From a virus, in the IMG/VR virus record IMGVR_UViG_3300025289_000016: a DNA stretch of 35,212 nucleotides; one strand, 5' to 3'. The translations under genes and the position numbers were made by a program. Under the pieces are notes generated by a model. The model searched no databases. It saw only the letters and a program-made list of their open reading frames with translations, and was not told where the DNA came from. Of the stretch, positions 1 to 35,212 are shown piece by piece (position 1 is the first letter of the stretch; the number at the start of each line of letters is the position of its first letter).

Positions 1-75
1 AAAGGTGATAACAATTTAGAATAAAAAGGTGATAACAATTTAGAATAAAAAGGTGATAACAATTTAGAATAAAAA
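1..75 (+). repeat. Tandem array: 3 copies (+3 nt) of the 24-bp unit AAAGGTGATAACAATTTAGAATAA; identical to the last 75 nt of the window
   Basis: Read directly: units at 1-24, 25-48 and 49-72. Bases 1-75 equal 35138-35212. Confidence 0.95.
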
Positions 76-82
76 GGGAAAA

Positions 83-286
83 ATGATTAAGAATTCTATG
101 TGGATAGTTTTTGATAATTATCATTTCCGACCCAATTGTTTAATTTTAGGGTGGGATAATCCACAAAAAAAGCTCAAAATTAATAAAACTATTAAATCCT
201 TGTGGGATAAAGAATCTATGGGATGGACAATATTTAATTTAAAAGGGAATTTTTATGAAAATAAAAAGATCGTGTTCTTTAACTAA
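83..286 (+). CDS. hypothetical protein, first gene after the tandem array
   Basis: ORF track. A-rich SD-like AAAGGGAAAAATG context. No recognisable motif. Confidence 0.4.
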   Translation: MIKNSMWIVFDNYHFRPNCLILGWDNPQKKLKINKTIKSLWDKESMGWTIFNLKGNFYENKKIVFFN

Positions 287-12540: not shown

Positions 12541-13707
12541 ATGGGACTTTTAACTAGAATTAAAATTTGGATTTCAGGAGAGAAACTTTATGCCTCTGAT
12601 TTGAATGCAGAATTTAATAATATTTTAAATAATTTAGACCACACTAAAATAGAAGACGAATCTACCAATATAACTGCCATGAGAGCACTTGCGGATCCCT
12701 ATCCCGGTGGAGCAGAAAGTTTAGCAACCGATTCACAAGACGAAATTCATAGATTACGATACCTCTTAAAACAATTAACACAAACTACTCAATGGTATAT
12801 ATATCCCGATTTAGTCACTAAAACAGCTGCATATACTGCTACCCTAAACGATAAAATAATTCTCTGCGATGCTACAGCTGGAGCTTTTACTATAACCCTA
12901 CCGACTGCGGTAGGTAATAGAGATAAACGATTTATTATTAAAAAGATAGATTCTTCTACTAATACAGTAACAATAGATGGGAATGGTGCTGAAACTATTG
13001 ATGGTGTAGCAACAAAGATATTACAGTATCAGTATCAAAGTATAGATATTATTTCAGACAATGCTAATTGGATAATTGTTTATAATATCAATGTAAATGC
13101 GTTAGAAGATTCTGTTGTCACTAAAACAGCTGCCTATACTGCTACCCTAAACGATAAAACAATTTTATGTGATGCTACAACTGCAGCGTTTACCGTAACC
13201 CTACCGACTGCGGTGGGTTGTAAGGGGAAAAAGTTTATCATTAAAAAGACAGATTCCACTATAAATACAGTAACAATAGATGGGAATGGTGCTGAAACTA
13301 TTGATGGTGTAGCAACAAAAATATTAACAAATCAATATTATGGTGTTTCAATTATTTCAAATAATACTAATTGGATAATTGAACAAAGCATATTTTCTAC
13401 TAATCTAGTTGCATCTGGTAATATACTTGTTCTATCGAATTCAGTACAAGATATTACTATTTCTACCACAAAAGGAGAGCTTCATTGTTTTTATCTTCAT
13501 TCTATTTGGTGCTCATCTGCTGCTACTCAATCATATACCTATGGTGTTGATGTTACAGGTGGTGAACTAGTGAGTCCAAGTGTTCACTCTTATATAATAA
13601 GGACAGGAACAGTAGGCGCCGAAAGTGTATACCTTAGGATTGTTAATGGACATACTGTTAATTCTTTTACTATTGAATATAGAGTATATGAGATAATTTT
13701 ATTTTAA
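12541..13707 (+). CDS. tail fibre/spike protein with an internal tandem domain duplication
   Basis: GAGGAGAATTTATG start. Two ~101-aa repeats (VVTKTAAYTATLNDK...NWII). Confidence 0.6.
   Translation: MGLLTRIKIWISGEKLYASDLNAEFNNILNNLDHTKIEDESTNITAMRALADPYPGGAESLATDSQDEIHRLRYLLKQLTQTTQWYIYPDLVTKTAAYTATLNDKIILCDATAGAFTITLPTAVGNRDKRFIIKKIDSSTNTVTIDGNGAETIDGVATKILQYQYQSIDIISDNANWIIVYNINVNALEDSVVTKTAAYTATLNDKTILCDATTAAFTVTLPTAVGCKGKKFIIKKTDSTINTVTIDGNGAETIDGVATKILTNQYYGVSIISNNTNWIIEQSIFSTNLVASGNILVLSNSVQDITISTTKGELHCFYLHSIWCSSAATQSYTYGVDVTGGELVSPSVHSYIIRTGTVGAESVYLRIVNGHTVNSFTIEYRVYEIILF
12814..13381 (+). repeat. Direct tandem duplication, period 303 nt (12814-13078 vs 13117-13381), inside the fibre gene
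   Basis: Aligned by eye. Long identical runs such as ACAGTAACAATAGATGGGAATGGTGCTGAAACTATTGATGGTGTAGCAACAAA. Confidence 0.9.
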
Positions 13708-30148: not shown

Positions 30149-30565
30149 TTAATGAGATAACTCACTCTGTAAACTATAATACCCATTCCAGGTAATTATA
30201 ATAAAATCCATAACGGGGATCCCCAAAATCTTTCCTGCCTCAACTAATCTTTTCCATAGTGTAATATCATCTTCCGAGGGGGTATTTTCCCCCGACGGAT
30301 GATTATGAACAACAATTATTCCTACCGAGCCATTCATAATTGCCTTTTTAAAAGTTTCTCGTGGATGCACTGGGCAACTATTTACGGTTCCCATTGCCAC
30401 AAGCTCCTTTTCTATAATTTTATTTCTTGTATTGAGGTGAATAGCCCATAGACATTCCCTATCTGCCCTAGCTTCTGTGGGCATTATTTTGAAAATATCC
30501 TCTGCGGTTATAATCTTCTCCCCTTTTGCTTCCTTAACCTCTAATAATTTTATTTTCATCTGCAT
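30149..30565 (-). CDS. radC: RadC-like JAB/MPN-domain protein
   Basis: HNHPSGENTPSEDD is an intact JAMM HxHx7Sx2D motif. The start is set at MQMKIK (AAAGGGGA SD). The track's 50-aa N-terminal extension has no support. Confidence 0.8.
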   Translation of the reverse strand: MQMKIKLLEVKEAKGEKIITAEDIFKIMPTEARADRECLWAIHLNTRNKIIEKELVAMGTVNSCPVHPRETFKKAIMNGSVGIIVVHNHPSGENTPSEDDITLWKRLVEAGKILGIPVMDFIIITWNGYYSLQSELSH

Positions 30566-30854
30566 TTCCCCTTTTTTCCAGCCTGCCCTCTCGGGTCGGG
30601 TCTTACAGGATTTTTTAATTTTATTCTTTTTATATTGCAAGTTCCGTGCCAAGTTTTCAAGAACCAAAAAATAACACAATTTCAATGAGTTAGCCTTCCG
30701 CAAGGACATACGCAATTATCAATCAGGACAGAAAATTAGCCCCCACTTTTACCATATTTGAGAAAAATCACCACAAACCCTTGAATTATCTACTCTTTTT
30801 GAAAGGCTAGAAAACTGTCCTCTGGAAGCCAACTTCTTAATATGGTATAGAATG

Positions 30855-30894
30855 GACAGGATATGACAGGATATGACAACATAGGACAATAATC
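30855..30894 (+). repeat. 10-bp iterons GACAGGATAT x2, then degenerate GACAACATAG and GACAATAATC
   Basis: Read directly. Confidence 0.85.
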
Positions 30895-30930
30895 TAATAC
30901 TCTTGATATATCTTAGTATGTCTATATTCC

Positions 30931-30970
30931 TATACAACATTATACAACATTATACAACATTATACAACAC
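30931..30970 (+). repeat. 10-bp iterons TATACAACAT x3 plus TATACAACAC
   Basis: Read directly. Confidence 0.95.
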
Positions 30971-30983
30971 AGCACAGGACAGG

Positions 30984-31003
30984 TTATCAACAGGTTATCC
31001 ACA
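30984..31003 (+). repeat. TTATCAACA and TTATCCACA, 11-bp phasing (ACAGGTTATC[AC] units)
   Basis: Read directly. TTATCCACA equals the consensus DnaA box. Confidence 0.85.
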
Positions 31004-31094
31004 ACCTTTCAATACAGGACAGTAGAAGAGGACTAAACAACAACGGTAGAACAAGATAGGATAGGAGTTGGATCCACCCCTTTTATGTTTCTAC

Positions 31095-31125
31095 TTATCC
31101 ACAGGTTATCCACAGGTTATCCACA
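31095..31125 (+). repeat. Three head-to-tail TTATCCACA boxes at 11-bp spacing (TTATCCACAGG units)
   Basis: Boxes at 31095-31103, 31106-31114 and 31117-31125. Confidence 0.95.
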
Positions 31126-31381
31126 GCTAGGAAATGGTTTACATAATACTAGTTATGGGAAGCAAAACAAGTAACCCCCTAGAAAATAAGAGAAAATTCA
31201 ACGATACTTAATGACTTTGCTCTCCCAATGGCGTAATAATTACCCAATATTCTCCTTTCACACAAACAAGAGGGGGGGTGGGGCCGGGTCGTGGAGTGAA
31301 TTATAATATATCCAACCGTTCTTTGGTTGCGAAATAAAAATTGAGAATTTTGCGATCTTCTATTTTCTGTTTCAATATTTA

Positions 31382-32268
31382 TCACAGGCTTAATTGTAAA
31401 CTACCCAATATTTCTTCTTGAATGGATTTGTATCCTAAATCTATTCCTATGCCAATTCTACCCAATTCTTCTGCAACTTTAATGGTTCTTCCACTACCAC
31501 AAAAGGGATCCAATACTATATCTCCTTTTTTTGTGGAACATAATACCATTCTTTCTACCAACTTTTCTGGAAACATAGCATTTGGTTAGATATAAACCAG
31601 GTATCTCCGGGATTTTTACCCTTATACATTTTATCAATGATATATCTTTTCCCTTCATCGTAATTATCCATTTCTTTTTGAGATGCTTTATGTTCCCTTG
31701 TTTCTTTATAAGGTTCTCTCACAGCGTCCAGATTAAAATAATAATCTTTGTTTTTTACAAACATAAAAACAAACTCAAACTTTTTTGAAAATCGGTTTTT
31801 GACTGATTCTGGAAGGCAATTGGGTTTTATCCAAACAATATCGTTTCTCAACGACCATTTTCCTTTATCAACCAAAGCTATAGCTATTCTGTGAGGTAAA
31901 AGATTTTTACACCCGGGAAGATACTTTTTATCTCCACCTCTTAAACAATGTATATCATTTTTACCACCATATTTAGATTTATCTTGCCTTCCAATTATTC
32001 CTATTCTATTATTCCAACTATCACCCAAATTAAGCCAGAAAATACCATCCTTTTTTAATACCCTATATGCTTCTTTACACCACAGTAGGGTATGTTCAAT
32101 ATAGGAATCAATGTTAGATTCTAATCCATATTGACCTTGCCAACCATCTATCACTACTTCAGGTATATCATATCGCCGAAGGCTCCAATAGGGGGGACTT
32201 GTAGTAATCGCTTGGACGCTTTCATCTTCGAGGGGCCATTTTTCAAAACTTGACTGATGGTATATCAT
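31382..32268 (-). pseudogene. beta-class (N4-C/N6-A) DNA methyltransferase interrupted by a 1-nt frameshift
   Basis: Motif IV TSPPYW is in ORF 31555..32268. Motif I VLDPFCGSGRT and FPEKL are in ORF 31382..31576. The frames change around 31586-31587. Confidence 0.75.
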
Positions 32269-32410: not shown

Positions 32411-33628
32411 CTAATCACAAAAAAGGTCTAAAATTTTAGGGACATCTTTAATATTGATCTTAATCTTTTTATTCTCTAAAATCTTCATCGTTTCCTCAGC
32501 TTGGCGGTTCTGTTTTTCTTTAGCCTGTTCTGTAGATAATTCTTGAATTTCTTTATAACCTAATTCTTGTGATTTTTGTTTCCGTTTCTCATACCTCTCA
32601 TCTCTTGCTTTCCTCTGCTCTGGAGTCAATGGCTTAATGGGATCCCCATTGTAATTATAAATCACATCGGGGCCGGTGAAAGTTTTCTGAGTTTTAATTT
32701 TCGTCCAATTGAGGTAGTTTTGGAATTTCTCGCTATAAAGAGTAGTAGGATTGAGGTTATGCTTCATTTTTGGATCCTTATACCATGCTTGGATCATATT
32801 AGTATGAACGGTTTTATACTGCTCAATTTCACGGTATCCTTCTTTCCAACGGTCCCGGATTAGTCGCTTAACAGCTGGAATGGGTTTATAATCAGTGCCT
32901 AATTTGGAATTGAGGTCAATAAGAATATCCCGGCAGTAGGCAGGTAACCATTCTTTAGGAAGTTCTTGGGGCATATCTTGGGTTGAAATCTTCACAGGAA
33001 GTTCACAAGAAGGTTCTTGAGAAAATGAAGGTTGGTAAGAATAGTCTTCAAGACTATCTTCTAGCTCATCGGTAGGTTCTTCTGTAGAAAGGTTAGGTGA
33101 ATTTATTGGTTCTTGAGAATTTGGTGGTTCTTGGGGGGGTGGGGGTTGGTTTTGGGTTTGGATTGGATTAGAAAAAAAAGGACTTTCTTTTTCTTTATTA
33201 ATTTCTTTTTCTTTATTATTACTATCTTCTTCTTTATTACTAGTACTATCTATATTACTATATGATGACATTTTAGCAGAATGGCGTTTTAGCACATTGG
33301 GACTTTGGCAGATTGGGATTATTGCAGATTGCGGTTTTGGTGAAGTAAAATTTCGGTTATATCTGATATAATATTCCATTTTCCCATCTTGTCTTTTTTG
33401 TCGTTTTAAATATCCGTTTTTTTCTAATTCCTTTAAACCTTCTCTAGTTGCTCGGATTCCATCTTTACTTTCTTTTACTATTCTATCAATTGCAAAATTC
33501 CAATCATCAGGTTTGGAATAAAGATAAAGAAATAAACCCTTTGCTTTCCATGATAAATTTTTATCAATTGCAATCTCATTTTTTATTTGCGTAAATCCAA
33601 CTTCTTGCTTTCTAAGTATTTGTTTCAT
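32411..33628 (-). CDS. replication organiser / initiator (N-terminal winged-helix, Pro-rich linker, C-terminal Phg_2220_C/DnaD-like domain)
   Basis: GFTQIKNEIAIDKNLSWKAKGLFLYLYS...GIRATREGLKELEKNGYL fits a wHTH. ILIDLNSKLGTDYKP...RLIRDRWKEGY...W..DPKM..NLNPTTLYS.KFQNYLNW matches the conserved phage C-terminus domain as I remember it. AGGAGG SD. Confidence 0.65.
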   Translation of the reverse strand: MKQILRKQEVGFTQIKNEIAIDKNLSWKAKGLFLYLYSKPDDWNFAIDRIVKESKDGIRATREGLKELEKNGYLKRQKRQDGKMEYYIRYNRNFTSPKPQSAIIPICQSPNVLKRHSAKMSSYSNIDSTSNKEEDSNNKEKEINKEKESPFFSNPIQTQNQPPPPQEPPNSQEPINSPNLSTEEPTDELEDSLEDYSYQPSFSQEPSCELPVKISTQDMPQELPKEWLPAYCRDILIDLNSKLGTDYKPIPAVKRLIRDRWKEGYREIEQYKTVHTNMIQAWYKDPKMKHNLNPTTLYSEKFQNYLNWTKIKTQKTFTGPDVIYNYNGDPIKPLTPEQRKARDERYEKRKQKSQELGYKEIQELSTEQAKEKQNRQAEETMKILENKKIKINIKDVPKILDLFCD

Positions 33629-33790: not shown

Positions 33791-33866
33791 TGGTGGAGAT
33801 AACCGGGATTGAACCGGTGGCCTTCTGGTTGCAAGCCAGACGCTCTCCCAACTGAGCTATACCCCC
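33791..33866 (-). tRNA. tRNA-Ala (anticodon UGC), CCA encoded
   Basis: The reverse complement folds by hand into a 76-nt cloverleaf: acceptor GGGGGTA/TATCTCC with G3:U70, D arm GCTC/GAGC, anticodon stem TCTGG/CCAGA with loop CTTGCAA, T arm ACCGG-TTCAATC-CCGGT, then ACCA. Confidence 0.9.
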
Positions 33867-34960: not shown

Positions 34961-35137
34961 ATGCCGGAATATAAAAGTAAAACCAAACATGGGGTTGTAT
35001 ACCAAGTTACAAAAGGTAAATCAGGAAATTATACTTGTGACTGCCCTGGTCATAAATATATAGGTGACTGTAGACACATTGCATTAGAAAAGCGGAAATC
35101 GGGTTATTTGGGGAAAGGTGATAACAATTTAGAATAA
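34961..35137 (+). CDS. 58-aa SWIM-type zinc-finger protein (not in the ORF track)
   Basis: CDCPGHKYIGDCRH fits CxCx(n)CxH. The ORF runs into the first array unit and ends GDNNLE-stop. Confidence 0.5.
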   Translation: MPEYKSKTKHGVVYQVTKGKSGNYTCDCPGHKYIGDCRHIALEKRKSGYLGKGDNNLE

Positions 35138-35212
35138 AAAGGTGATAACAATTTAGAATAAAAAGGTGATAACAATTTAGAATAAAAAGGTGATAACAAT
35201 TTAGAATAAAAA
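35114..35212 (+). repeat. Tandem array: 4 copies (+3 nt) of the 24-bp unit AAAGGTGATAACAATTTAGAATAA at the window end
   Basis: Units at 35114, 35138, 35162 and 35186. The last 75 nt equal the first 75 nt. Confidence 0.95.

What the first reader, a model, noticed from the sequence alone, without database searches (positions are those of the whole stretch)
30855..31125. Origin-like region with three helically phased iteron families, including five consensus-type DnaA boxes
The region lies between the radC-like and methyltransferase genes, about 1.3 kb downstream of the replication-organiser gene. It contains GACAGGATAT x2 (plus 2 degenerate units, 10-bp period) and TATACAACA[TC] x4 (10-bp period). 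It also contains TTATCAACA + TTATCCACA (11-bp period) and TTATCCACA x3 head-to-tail at exact 11-bp spacing (31095-31125). An AT-rich stretch (about 30885-30930) lies among them. TTATCCACA is the textbook high-affinity DnaA box, and three perfect boxes one helical turn apart would be an unusually dense DnaA platform for a phage. They could recruit host DnaA to a phage origin, as plasmid and P1-type origins do, or titrate DnaA in a datA-like manner. Caveat: the boxes arise from the iteron unit ACAGGTTATCC, which is related to the ACAGGATAT iterons. They may instead be sites for the phage initiator that merely contain the 9-mer.
Basis: partly seen in the sequence, partly recalled or inferred. Interest (0 to 1): 0.65.

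Follow-up and report, generated by a model that had tools for sequence, protein, structure and literature searches.

The report
Host DnaA landing pad in phage
In the largest non-coding gap of its replication genes, this phage carries tight rows of perfect binding sites for DnaA, the bacterial replication starter protein; the same rows occur at bacterial chromosome origins and in hundreds of unrelated viruses, so it is a real, recurrent device for capturing the host protein, but whether it starts phage replication or only soaks up DnaA is not settled.

Summary
The genome has 8 perfect TTATCCACA boxes where 0.45 are expected, and five boxes (four perfect) sit co-oriented within 142 bp at an 11-bp period. 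Perfect triple arrays occur in at least 120 unrelated IMG/VR contigs at an 11-bp period and at least 120 at 12 bp. There are none at 10 bp, 3 at 13 bp, and 1 for a reversed control 9-mer. In bacteria the same arrays lie next to dnaA and dnaN. So the site is a DnaA platform, and it is not unusual for a phage.

The "origin" reading is only partly supported. A better lambda-type origin lies inside the rep gene: five 16-bp iterons, then an 83% A+T tract, at a position that also carries non-triplet repeats in two of three relatives examined. The finding's AT patch is weaker (74%) and lies on the wrong side of the boxes for oriC geometry. Similar arrays also occur in T7-like and T5-like phages and in microviruses, and they are rare in plasmids.

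Best reading (0.4): a DnaA-capturing helper or secondary initiation site. Main rival (0.3): a DnaA sink. For this window it is a new member of a known kind. The virus-wide array pattern is the more interesting result.

The parts
30560..31381 (.). Largest non-coding gap of the genome (822 bp), between the methyltransferase and radC in the leftward replication operon. It contains everything listed below up to 31296.
   Evidence: Independent JGI and ENA gene calls leave it empty. Gap ranking and 63% A+T are. There is no Rfam family. Promoter-like and terminator-like sites are not above shuffles.
30855..30894 (+). 10-bp direct repeats: GACAGGATAT x2, then the degenerate units GACAACATAG and GACAATAATC.
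   Evidence: A 1-mismatch search finds no other tandem copies in the genome.
30880..30940 (.). Local duplex-stability minimum (74% A+T), between the two 10-bp repeat families.
   Evidence: The 40-bp nearest-neighbour dG is -42.8 against a genome mean of -48.9 +/- 3.7, in the lowest 0.8%.
30931..30970 (+). TATACAACA[T/C] x4, 10-bp period. One other assembly of the same phage has 3 copies.
   Evidence: An exact three-unit array was found only once in IMG/VR, in an unrelated AT-rich contig.
30984..31003 (+). DnaA-box pair TTATCAACA-GG-TTATCCACA (11-bp period), preceded by the partial units ACAGGACAGG (30974-30983).
31095..31125 (+). Three perfect DnaA boxes, TTATCCACA-GG-TTATCCACA-GG-TTATCCACA, head to tail at an 11-bp period.
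   Evidence: The same array occurs in at least 120 IMG/VR loci and at least 120 bacterial contigs.
31270..31296 (+). G-rich tract GAGGGGGGGTGGGGCCGGGTCGTGGAG (18% A+T) about 145 bp 3' of the triple array. It shares the 12-mer GGGGGGGTGGGG with 33133-33144.
   Evidence: Whether it belongs to the element is uncertain.
32411..33628 (-). Rep / replication-organiser gene: N-terminal HTH_36, a low-complexity linker, and C-terminal Phg_2220_C.
33265..33344 (+). Rival origin, part 1: five 16-bp direct repeats inside the rep linker-coding region (ATGACATTTTAGCAGA, ATGGCGTTTTAGCACA, TTGGGACTTTGGCAGA, TTGGGATTATTGCAGA, TTGCGGTTTTGGTGAA). The period is not a multiple of 3.
   Evidence: Other rep genes carry repeats at the same position: L252 has 23 bp x3 perfect, and L127 has 16-bp repeats.
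33126..33262 (.). Rival origin, part 2: an 82.7% A+T tract (33182-33262) followed by a G-rich tract (33126-33160), immediately downstream of the in-gene iterons in the direction of rep transcription.

Best explanation
The five co-oriented boxes form a high-affinity, cooperative landing pad for the host initiator DnaA. It is an oriC-like DnaA-box array placed in the non-coding spacer of the phage replication operon.

Shown:
- The sequence, its spacing and its statistical excess.
- Identical arrays recur with the same tight spacing rule in many unrelated viruses and at bacterial oriC.

Inferred:
- DnaA binds here head to tail.
- No helicase, primase, polymerase or helicase loader was recognised in this phage, so it probably uses the bound DnaA to draw the host helicase-loading pathway onto phage DNA.
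- The region would then act as a DnaA-dependent helper or second initiation site beside the 10-bp repeats and the weak AT patch.
- The phage Rep would fire its own lambda-type origin inside the rep gene, about 2 kb away.
- Holding DnaA on a multi-copy phage genome would also take it away from the host origin.
For: - Excess: 8 perfect boxes against 0.45 expected, with 4 in 150 bp. There are 5 boxes per 300 bp here and at most 2 elsewhere.
- Spacing rule in IMG/VR for perfect triple arrays: 0 at 10 bp, at least 120 at 11 bp, at least 120 at 12 bp, 3 at 13 bp, and 1 for the reversed 9-mer at 11 bp.
- The 120 period-11 viral loci share nothing with this window except the array.
- In bacteria, 40 of 140 ORFs flanking such arrays are DnaA, 30 are the beta clamp and 7 are RecF. 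Viral and bacterial arrays share the same extended flanks, aaAG|box..box|GG.
- Viral arrays sit beside replication-initiator genes on the 3' side: REP_ORF2-G2P 7, HTH_36 3, Rep3 1 and Bac_DnaA_C 1 of 103 flanking ORFs. On the 5' side there are 2 of 108.
- 25% of viral arrays have another tandem repeat within 250 bp, mostly of period 10-12 or 20-24. Random control sites in the same loci show 4.5%.
- In this phage the array lies inside the Rep-MTase-RadC operon, in the largest non-coding gap, next to a local stability minimum.
- Only Rep, SSB, an exonuclease and a VRR-NUC nuclease were recognised. No helicase, primase, polymerase or loader was found.
Against: - A more convincing Rep-dependent origin lies inside rep: five 16-bp iterons plus an 83% A+T tract. 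Relatives L252 and L127, which have different N-terminal domains, carry non-triplet repeats at the same position.
- The AT patch here is only 74% A+T. It lies 5' of all five boxes, whereas at oriC the unwinding element lies 3' of 5'-TTATCCACA-3'. That orientation comes from my recollection of E. coli R1 and the DUE.
- No DnaA-trio-like run follows the boxes: the longest run is 2.
- The same arrays occur in T7-like and T5-like phages and in microviruses, which by established knowledge do not need DnaA to replicate.
- The arrays are rare in plasmids.
- The boxes are about 2.1 kb from the in-gene iterons, which is far for one composite origin.
- No DnaA binding or replication data exist for this phage.
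Confidence: 0.4

Rival explanations
1. DnaA sink or hijack without initiation. The arrays only hold DnaA. As the phage genome multiplies, they withdraw DnaA from oriC, or use DnaA as an anchor or architectural protein. This blocks new host rounds and frees replisome parts. No unwinding happens here.
For: - The boxes are perfect consensus at cooperative spacing. Perfect boxes are about 17-fold over-represented genome-wide, including 4 inside structural genes.
- Neither viral nor bacterial arrays show a consistent AT-rich element on either side.
- Array orientation relative to neighbouring genes is close to random: 21 same-sense, 17 antisense, 12 divergent, 6 convergent.
- Arrays occur in phages with their own replisomes, namely T7-like and T5-like phages, and in microviruses.
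- Per base they are much rarer in plasmids, which cannot afford to poison host initiation. PLSDB has 1 record at E<=0.01 in 7.3 Gb. INPHARED has 142 records at E<=1 in 2.3 Gb.
- Chromosomal titration loci such as datA and the B. subtilis DnaA-box clusters are precedents (own knowledge).
Against: - I found no experimental precedent in phages in the searched library.
- Five boxes per genome copy titrate little until copy number is high.
- T7-like and T5-like phages destroy host DNA anyway, so this cannot be the universal role.
- The association with initiator genes and iteron-like repeats fits an origin role better.
Confidence: 0.3
2. Transcription-linked element. DnaA bound to the arrays acts as a roadblock or attenuator between the Rep-MTase genes and radC. 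Alternatively it represses a rightward promoter that overlaps the last box (TCCACA-16-CATAAT, 31120-31147). That promoter's G-rich transcript across 31270-31296 could form an R-loop.
For: - The array sits inside an operon, about 260 bp downstream of the methyltransferase stop and 430-570 bp upstream of radC.
- There is a 9/12 promoter-like match at 31120-31147.
- The G-rich tract lies 145 bp downstream on the same strand.
- All 8 perfect boxes read TGTGGATAA on the local sense strand.
Against: - Promoter-like matches are not above shuffles: 9 found against 6.1 +/- 2.8 expected.
- Across viruses, array orientation relative to transcription is close to random.
- The association with C or G runs is only about 3-fold after dereplication.
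- Three of the four coding-region boxes are explained by V-D-K/N codons.
Confidence: 0.1
3. Slippage-generated repeats with no selected function. The 270-bp region is a decaying microsatellite-like expansion of one 10-11-bp unit that happens to contain the DnaA 9-mer.
For: - The three families are related: ACAGG-TTATCC, ACAGG-ATATG and TTAT(A)CAACA.
- The TATACAACAT copy number differs between isolates, 3 against 4.
- No relatives are available to show conservation.
Against: - The reversed 9-mer control gives 1 array against at least 120 for the DnaA box.
- Periods of 10 and 13 bp are almost absent, which slippage alone cannot explain.
- The boxes are perfect and unchanged in all assemblies examined.
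Confidence: 0.1
4. One reading: the 11-bp units are iterons for the phage's own initiator and contain the DnaA 9-mer only by coincidence.
For: - The unit ACAGGTTATCC resembles the neighbouring ACAGGATAT units.
- Rep has an N-terminal HTH domain.
Against: - The identical unit, with the same GG spacer (197 of 269 spacers), occurs in more than 100 unrelated viruses with unrelated or no Rep proteins, and at bacterial oriC.
- Rep-family genes carry their own variable iterons inside the gene.
- Distant relatives sharing the Rep N-terminal domain have no such arrays.
Confidence: 0.05

Closest known systems
DnaA-box clusters of bacterial chromosomal origins (oriC), including the tandem co-oriented boxes of the basal unwinding system (BUS; PMC8287927, PMC6669920)
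   Same: Perfect TTATCCACA boxes, co-oriented, with 2-bp spacers. The identical triple array lies next to dnaA and dnaN in many phyla and has the same extended flanks.
   Different: There is no dnaA or dnaN here and no DnaA-trio run after the boxes. The AT patch is on the 5' side of the boxes, and the element is on a phage.
Iteron-type plasmid and prophage origins that need DnaA (P1 oriR, F oriS, pSC101, RK2 oriV; reviewed in PMC4980987)
   Same: DnaA boxes, an AT-rich patch and tandem direct repeats lie close to a rep gene, in an element that depends on the host replisome.
   Different: The repeats here are contiguous 10-mers rather than spaced iterons of about 17-22 bp. Rep is 1.3 kb away with a methyltransferase gene in between. 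Rep-family iterons appear to lie inside the rep gene. Tandem perfect triple arrays are rare in plasmids.
Lambda-type origin inside the initiator gene (ori-lambda in gene O; established knowledge)
   Same: This applies to the rival site at 33126-33344: iterons, then an AT-rich tract, in the linker-coding part of the initiator gene. Iterons differ where the N-terminal domain differs.
   Different: It is not the region of the finding. The period is 16 bp and no P-like loader gene was found.
DnaA-box pairs in the injection-stop (iss) region of T5-like phages (bioRxiv 10.1101/866236)
   Same: Multiple consensus and TTATCAACA-variant DnaA boxes in a repeat-rich non-coding phage region that is thought not to be an origin.
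   Different: T5 has pairs separated by 3 bp, inside large inverted repeats of the terminal repeat. Here there is a 2+3 arrangement with 2-bp spacers, internal to a circularly permuted genome, inside the replication operon.
datA and other chromosomal DnaA-titrating loci (own knowledge; PMC4585315)
   Same: A cluster of high-affinity boxes outside an origin that could lower free DnaA.
   Different: datA has dispersed boxes plus an essential IHF site and acts by DnaA-ATP hydrolysis. Here the boxes are strictly tandem. The single IHF-like core at 30985 is no more than chance, with 6 per genome.

Membership tests
Chromosomal oriC / BUS-type unwinding module | Cluster of DnaA boxes, with at least two co-oriented boxes separated by at most 3 bp | tested here: met
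   Boxes at 30984 and 30995, and at 31095, 31106 and 31117. All are on the + strand with 2-bp spacers.
Chromosomal oriC / BUS-type unwinding module | At least 3 DnaA-trios (NAN repeats, consensus 3'-GAT-5') starting within about 16 bp of the boxes (PMC8287927) | tested here: not met
   The longest in-register run after either box group is 1-2 triplets with spacers of 0-8 bp.
Chromosomal oriC / BUS-type unwinding module | AT-rich unwinding element on the 3' side of 5'-TTATCCACA-3' | tested here: not met
   Downstream of the boxes A+T is 55-68%. The only low-stability patch (30880-30940) is upstream. The orientation rule comes from my recollection of E. coli R1 and the DUE.
Chromosomal oriC / BUS-type unwinding module | Location beside dnaA or dnaN | tested here: not met
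   The neighbours are Rep, a methyltransferase and RadC.
Iteron plasmid / P1 oriR-type origin | DnaA box or boxes adjacent to an AT-rich region and tandem iterons | tested here: met
   Layout: 10-bp repeats, then the AT patch, then 10-bp repeats, then DnaA boxes.
Iteron plasmid / P1 oriR-type origin | The iterons are bound by the element's own Rep | not testable with these tools
   Indirect evidence points elsewhere. Rep-family genes carry their own repeats inside the gene. The 10-bp units share no clear core with those repeats.
Iteron plasmid / P1 oriR-type origin | The fragment supports autonomous replication when Rep is supplied | not testable with these tools
   This needs cloning.
Lambda-type origin within the initiator gene (rival site 33126-33344) | Direct repeats of non-triplet period in the linker-coding region, followed by an AT-rich tract | tested here: met
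   Five 16-bp repeats plus an 82.7% A+T tract.
Lambda-type origin within the initiator gene (rival site 33126-33344) | The same position holds different iterons in relatives with different DNA-binding domains | tested here: met
   L252 has 23 bp x3 perfect. L127 has 16-bp repeats. The C-terminal domain is highly conserved in L252 and L253 while their N-terminal domains do not align with the window's. L253 has only a 12-bp (triplet-period) repeat at that position.
datA-like DnaA-titration / DDAH locus | High-affinity box cluster plus an essential IHF site | tested here: inconclusive
   The boxes are present. One WATCAANNNNTTR match lies at 30985, but there are 6 such matches in the genome. The host is unknown.
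T5-type iss DnaA-box region | Box pairs 3 bp apart, embedded in large inverted repeats of a terminal repeat | tested here: not met
   Spacers are 2 bp. There are no long inverted repeats around the boxes. The genome assembles as a circle with variable break points.

The most novel reading that the evidence does not exclude
Tandem perfect DnaA-box arrays with 2-3-bp spacers are a widespread, convergently acquired viral device for capturing the host initiator. They occur in tailed phages, T7-like and T5-like termini and microviruses, but are largely avoided by plasmids. Their primary role would be host takeover or DNA anchoring (a 'DnaA sponge'), not origin firing. This window would be one internal, replication-module example.
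Probability: 0.3. Interest if true: 0.75.

Novelty: new member of a known kind. Interest (0 to 1): 0.55.

Why it matters
For this phage, the result relocates the likely Rep-dependent origin into the rep gene. It also marks a separate site where the host initiator is probably captured. That gives two separable, clonable elements to test.

More generally, the survey shows that perfect DnaA-box arrays with a sharp 11-12-bp spacing rule recur in hundreds of unrelated viruses. These include cultured T7-like phages, Arthrobacter phages and microviruses. I found no paper on this in the searched library. If these arrays sequester or exploit DnaA, that would be a DNA-encoded, protein-free host-takeover device. 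It would be directly testable in existing phage-host pairs, and it is relevant when phage origins are predicted from DnaA boxes.

Tried and rejected
- Relatives of this phage, to test conservation of the region. Rep in IMG/VR gave none. RadC in IMG/VR gave none. The Rep alignment in JGI metagenomes returned only the known 1.9-kb contig. Megablast and blastn against GenBank phages matched only the array.
- Distant relatives sharing the Rep N-terminal domain (L126, L127, L129) have no box arrays in the fetched stretch. No conservation test was therefore possible.
- Meta-profile for an AT-rich element or DnaA-trios next to arrays. It was flat in the viral set and also in the bacterial oriC set, so it does not discriminate.
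- Poly-C and poly-G runs next to arrays looked striking in raw hits. After dereplication the enrichment is only about 3-fold within 150 bp.
- Promoter and terminator scan: not above shuffles.
- Rfam found only a tRNA elsewhere.
- PDB and NCBIfam added nothing on Rep.
- The TATACAACAT array as a recurrent host-factor site: one unrelated hit only.
- The IHF-like core at 30985 is at chance level.
- GC skew follows gene orientation only.
- Host identity was not resolved. The portal is P22-like and its nearest cultured relatives infect Gram-negative hosts. Shine-Dalgarno-like GGGG/GGAGG motifs precede genes, and G+C is 34%.

Full report
**What is there**

- GACAGGATAT x2 at 30855, followed by two degenerate units.
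- A 74% A+T patch at about 30880-30940.
- TATACAACA[T/C] x4 at 30931-30970.
- TTATCAACA-GG-TTATCCACA at 30984-31003.
- TTATCCACA x3 at an exact 11-bp period at 31095-31125.
- All five boxes are on the + strand.

The region lies in an 822-bp stretch, 30560-31381, that independent gene callers leave empty. It is the largest non-coding gap of the genome. It sits inside a leftward operon: tRNA-Ala, Rep (HTH_36 + Phg_2220_C), a split N6/N4 methyltransferase, the gap, RadC, then small ORFs.

The window is a complete genome of about 35 kb that assembles as a circle, from a phage with a P22-like portal. Recognised replication and recombination functions are Rep, SSB, an exonuclease and a VRR-NUC nuclease. 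No helicase, primase, polymerase or helicase loader was recognised.

**Is it more than chance?**

Yes.
- Dinucleotide shuffles give 0.45 +/- 0.65 perfect boxes per genome (maximum 3 in 1000 shuffles). Eight are observed.
- No shuffle has more than 2 boxes in 150 bp. Four are observed.
- Counting boxes with up to 1 mismatch, the region holds 5 per 300 bp and nowhere else holds more than 2.
- The same phage was assembled from at least four independent samples. The region is identical in those assemblies that cover it, except that one carries three TATACAACAT units instead of four.

**Are the 9-mers DnaA sites or the phage initiator's own iterons?**

Comparison answers this. The 120 loci share nothing with this window except the array.

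The scans for perfect triple arrays gave:

| Pattern | IMG/VR loci |
|---|---|
| 10-bp period | 0 |
| 13-bp period | 3 |
| Reversed 9-mer, 11-bp period (control) | 1 |

- The spacer is GG in 197 of 269 cases, as it is in this window.
- After dereplication into 128 flank clusters, the arrays share an extended signature, aaAG|box...box|GG.
Of 140 ORFs flanking those arrays, 40 are DnaA, 30 are the beta clamp and 7 are RecF. The array is therefore a genuine component of chromosomal origins across phyla.
- ORFs flanking the viral arrays include no DnaA ATPase and no beta clamp. They do include terminases, portals, microvirus Rep and scaffold proteins. The viral hits are therefore not mis-binned bacterial origins.

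A motif that is identical in unrelated viruses and at oriC, and that is confined to 2-3-bp spacers, is best explained by the one protein they all share, host DnaA. DnaA arrays in E. coli oriC also use 2-bp spacers (my recollection).

**Is the region the origin?**

Some evidence favours it.
- It lies in the replication operon, in a large non-coding gap, with two phage-specific 10-bp repeat families flanking a local stability minimum in the lowest 0.8%.
- The phage appears to depend on the host helicase.
- Across viruses, replication-initiator genes are more frequent next to the arrays on the 3' side: 12 of 103 flanking ORFs, against 2 of 108 on the 5' side.
- A quarter of viral arrays have another tandem repeat within 250 bp, mostly of period 10-12 or 20-24. 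Random control sites in the same loci show 4.5%.

Other evidence goes against it.
- A better origin candidate lies inside rep. Five 16-bp direct repeats at 33265-33344 have a period that is not a multiple of three, so they act at the DNA level rather than the protein level. They are followed, in the direction of rep transcription, by an 82.7% A+T tract (33182-33262) and a G-rich tract. This is the layout of ori-lambda inside gene O (established knowledge).
- Other rep genes carry repeats at the same position. Relative L252 shares a highly conserved C-terminal domain but has an N-terminal domain that does not align, and it carries three perfect 23-bp repeats there. Relative L127, which is related through the N-terminal domain, carries 16-bp repeats there. 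L253 has only a 12-bp, triplet-period repeat at that position.
- The AT patch of the finding is only 74% A+T (genome 66%). It lies 5' of all five co-oriented boxes. At oriC and in the basal unwinding system, the unwound DNA and the DnaA-trios lie 3' of 5'-TTATCCACA-3' (PMC8287927, plus my recollection of E. coli R1 and the DUE). No trio-like run follows the boxes.
- Arrays like this one occur in phages that by established knowledge do not need DnaA to replicate. In Shigella phage A7 (T7-like) the boxes are within the first 130 bp. Klebsiella phage FBKp16 has seven perfect boxes in a non-coding stretch about 4 kb from one end of the record. Other carriers are T5-like phages (left terminal repeat), Arthrobacter phages (within about 95 bp of an end) and several microviruses, including Microvirus mar39 with four boxes.
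- A T5 preprint argues that the T5 boxes are not origin elements (10.1101/866236).
- The arrays are rare in plasmids. PLSDB (7.3 Gb) gives 1 record at E<=0.01 and 72 at E<=10. Of those 72, 47 belong to one Neisseria plasmid family and some are chromosomes. GenBank phages (2.3 Gb) give 142 records at E<=1. This is a rough, BLAST-based comparison.

**Mechanism I commit to**

The element is an oriC-like landing pad that assembles host DnaA head to tail. I put the probability that DnaA binds here at about 0.75.

For its use in this phage:
- 0.4: it brings DnaA, and through it the host helicase-loading pathway, onto phage DNA. It would act as a helper or second initiation site beside the 10-bp repeats, while Rep fires the in-gene origin.
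- 0.3: it is a DnaA sink or hijack element with no unwinding. This fits the plasmid/phage contrast, the genome-wide excess of perfect boxes, and the lack of any consistent unwinding element next to viral arrays.
- 0.1: a transcription-linked role.
- 0.1: functionless slippage product.
- 0.05: Rep iterons.

The sequence facts and the comparative statistics are shown. DnaA binding and everything downstream of it are inferred.

**Comparison with known systems, and novelty**

DnaA boxes in phage and plasmid origins are familiar (P1, F, pSC101, RK2), and they are routinely used to annotate phage origins (for example PMC11512268). As an object, this window is a new member of a known kind.
- It is not a member of the oriC/BUS class: the trio, unwinding-element side and gene-context features were tested and not met.
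- Membership of the iteron-origin class cannot be settled without binding and replication assays.

Less familiar is the virus-wide recurrence of perfect tandem arrays with a sharp 11-12-bp rule. I found nothing on it in the searched library. It includes viruses in which an origin role is implausible.

Noticed in passing
window 1-94 and 35114-35212: Both ends of the window carry a perfect 24-bp tandem repeat, AAAGGTGATAACAATTTAGAATAA (3.2 and 4.1 copies). Other assemblies join the ends, so the genome is circular or circularly permuted. The repeat is a single non-coding array between ORF 34961-35137 and ORF 305-1051. Its role is unknown; a pac site, a regulator site or another iteron set are possibilities.
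   Followed up: partly
window 33126-33344 (inside rep, 32411-33628 minus strand): Five 16-bp direct repeats, an 83% A+T tract and a G-rich tract lie in the linker-coding part of rep. This is a lambda-type origin-in-initiator-gene layout. Other rep genes have different repeats at the same position (L252: 23 bp x3 perfect; L127: 16-bp repeats).
   Followed up: yes
window 31382-32268 (minus strand): The N6/N4 DNA methyltransferase is split into two overlapping ORFs (31555-32268 and 31382-31576). The split is present in the independent assemblies that cover it (L122, L123, L125). It is therefore a real frameshift, either a pseudogene or programmed, and not an assembly error.
   Followed up: partly
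window 9720, 10405, 10549, 18123 (minus strand): Four more perfect TTATCCACA boxes lie inside structural genes. All read TGTGGATAA on the sense strand, and three encode V-D-K/N. Together with the region they make 8 perfect boxes against 0.45 expected.
   Followed up: partly
window 31272-31283 and 33133-33144: The 12-mer GGGGGGGTGGGG occurs twice in this 34% G+C genome. One copy is 145 bp 3' of the triple DnaA array. The other is next to the in-gene AT tract. All six G7+ runs of the genome are on the + strand.
   Followed up: no
window 33791-33866 (minus strand): tRNA-Ala (anticodon TGC) lies just upstream of rep.
   Followed up: no
window 12814-13381: A 303-bp tandem duplication (1.9 copies, 84% identity) lies inside ORF 12541-13707, a tail or baseplate-like protein.
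   Followed up: no
L374 1-130 (Shigella phage A7), L376 1500-1680 (Klebsiella phage FBKp16), L375 48-95 (Arthrobacter phage Tiff81), L001 1505-1570 (Microvirus mar39): Cultured phages that do not depend on DnaA for replication carry clusters of perfect DnaA boxes. In A7 and Tiff81 the clusters lie within about 130 bp of a genome end. In FBKp16 they lie in a non-coding stretch about 4 kb from one end of the record. In mar39 they lie next to the microvirus rep gene. INPHARED holds 142 records with similar tandem boxes.
   Followed up: partly
L298 (Candidatus Pantoea edessiphila plasmid pSOE2, 3.8 kb) and L257 (Binatia MAG chromosome, 649-745): These are extreme arrays. A 3.8-kb symbiont plasmid has four overlapping triple matches, meaning at least 12 boxes. 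A bacterial chromosome has 10 perfect boxes in one uninterrupted 11-bp-period run.
   Followed up: no
window 30985-30997: The variant box plus spacer, TATCAACAGGTTA, matches the IHF core consensus WATCAANNNNTTR. Six such matches occur in the genome, so this one is not significant on its own.
   Followed up: yes
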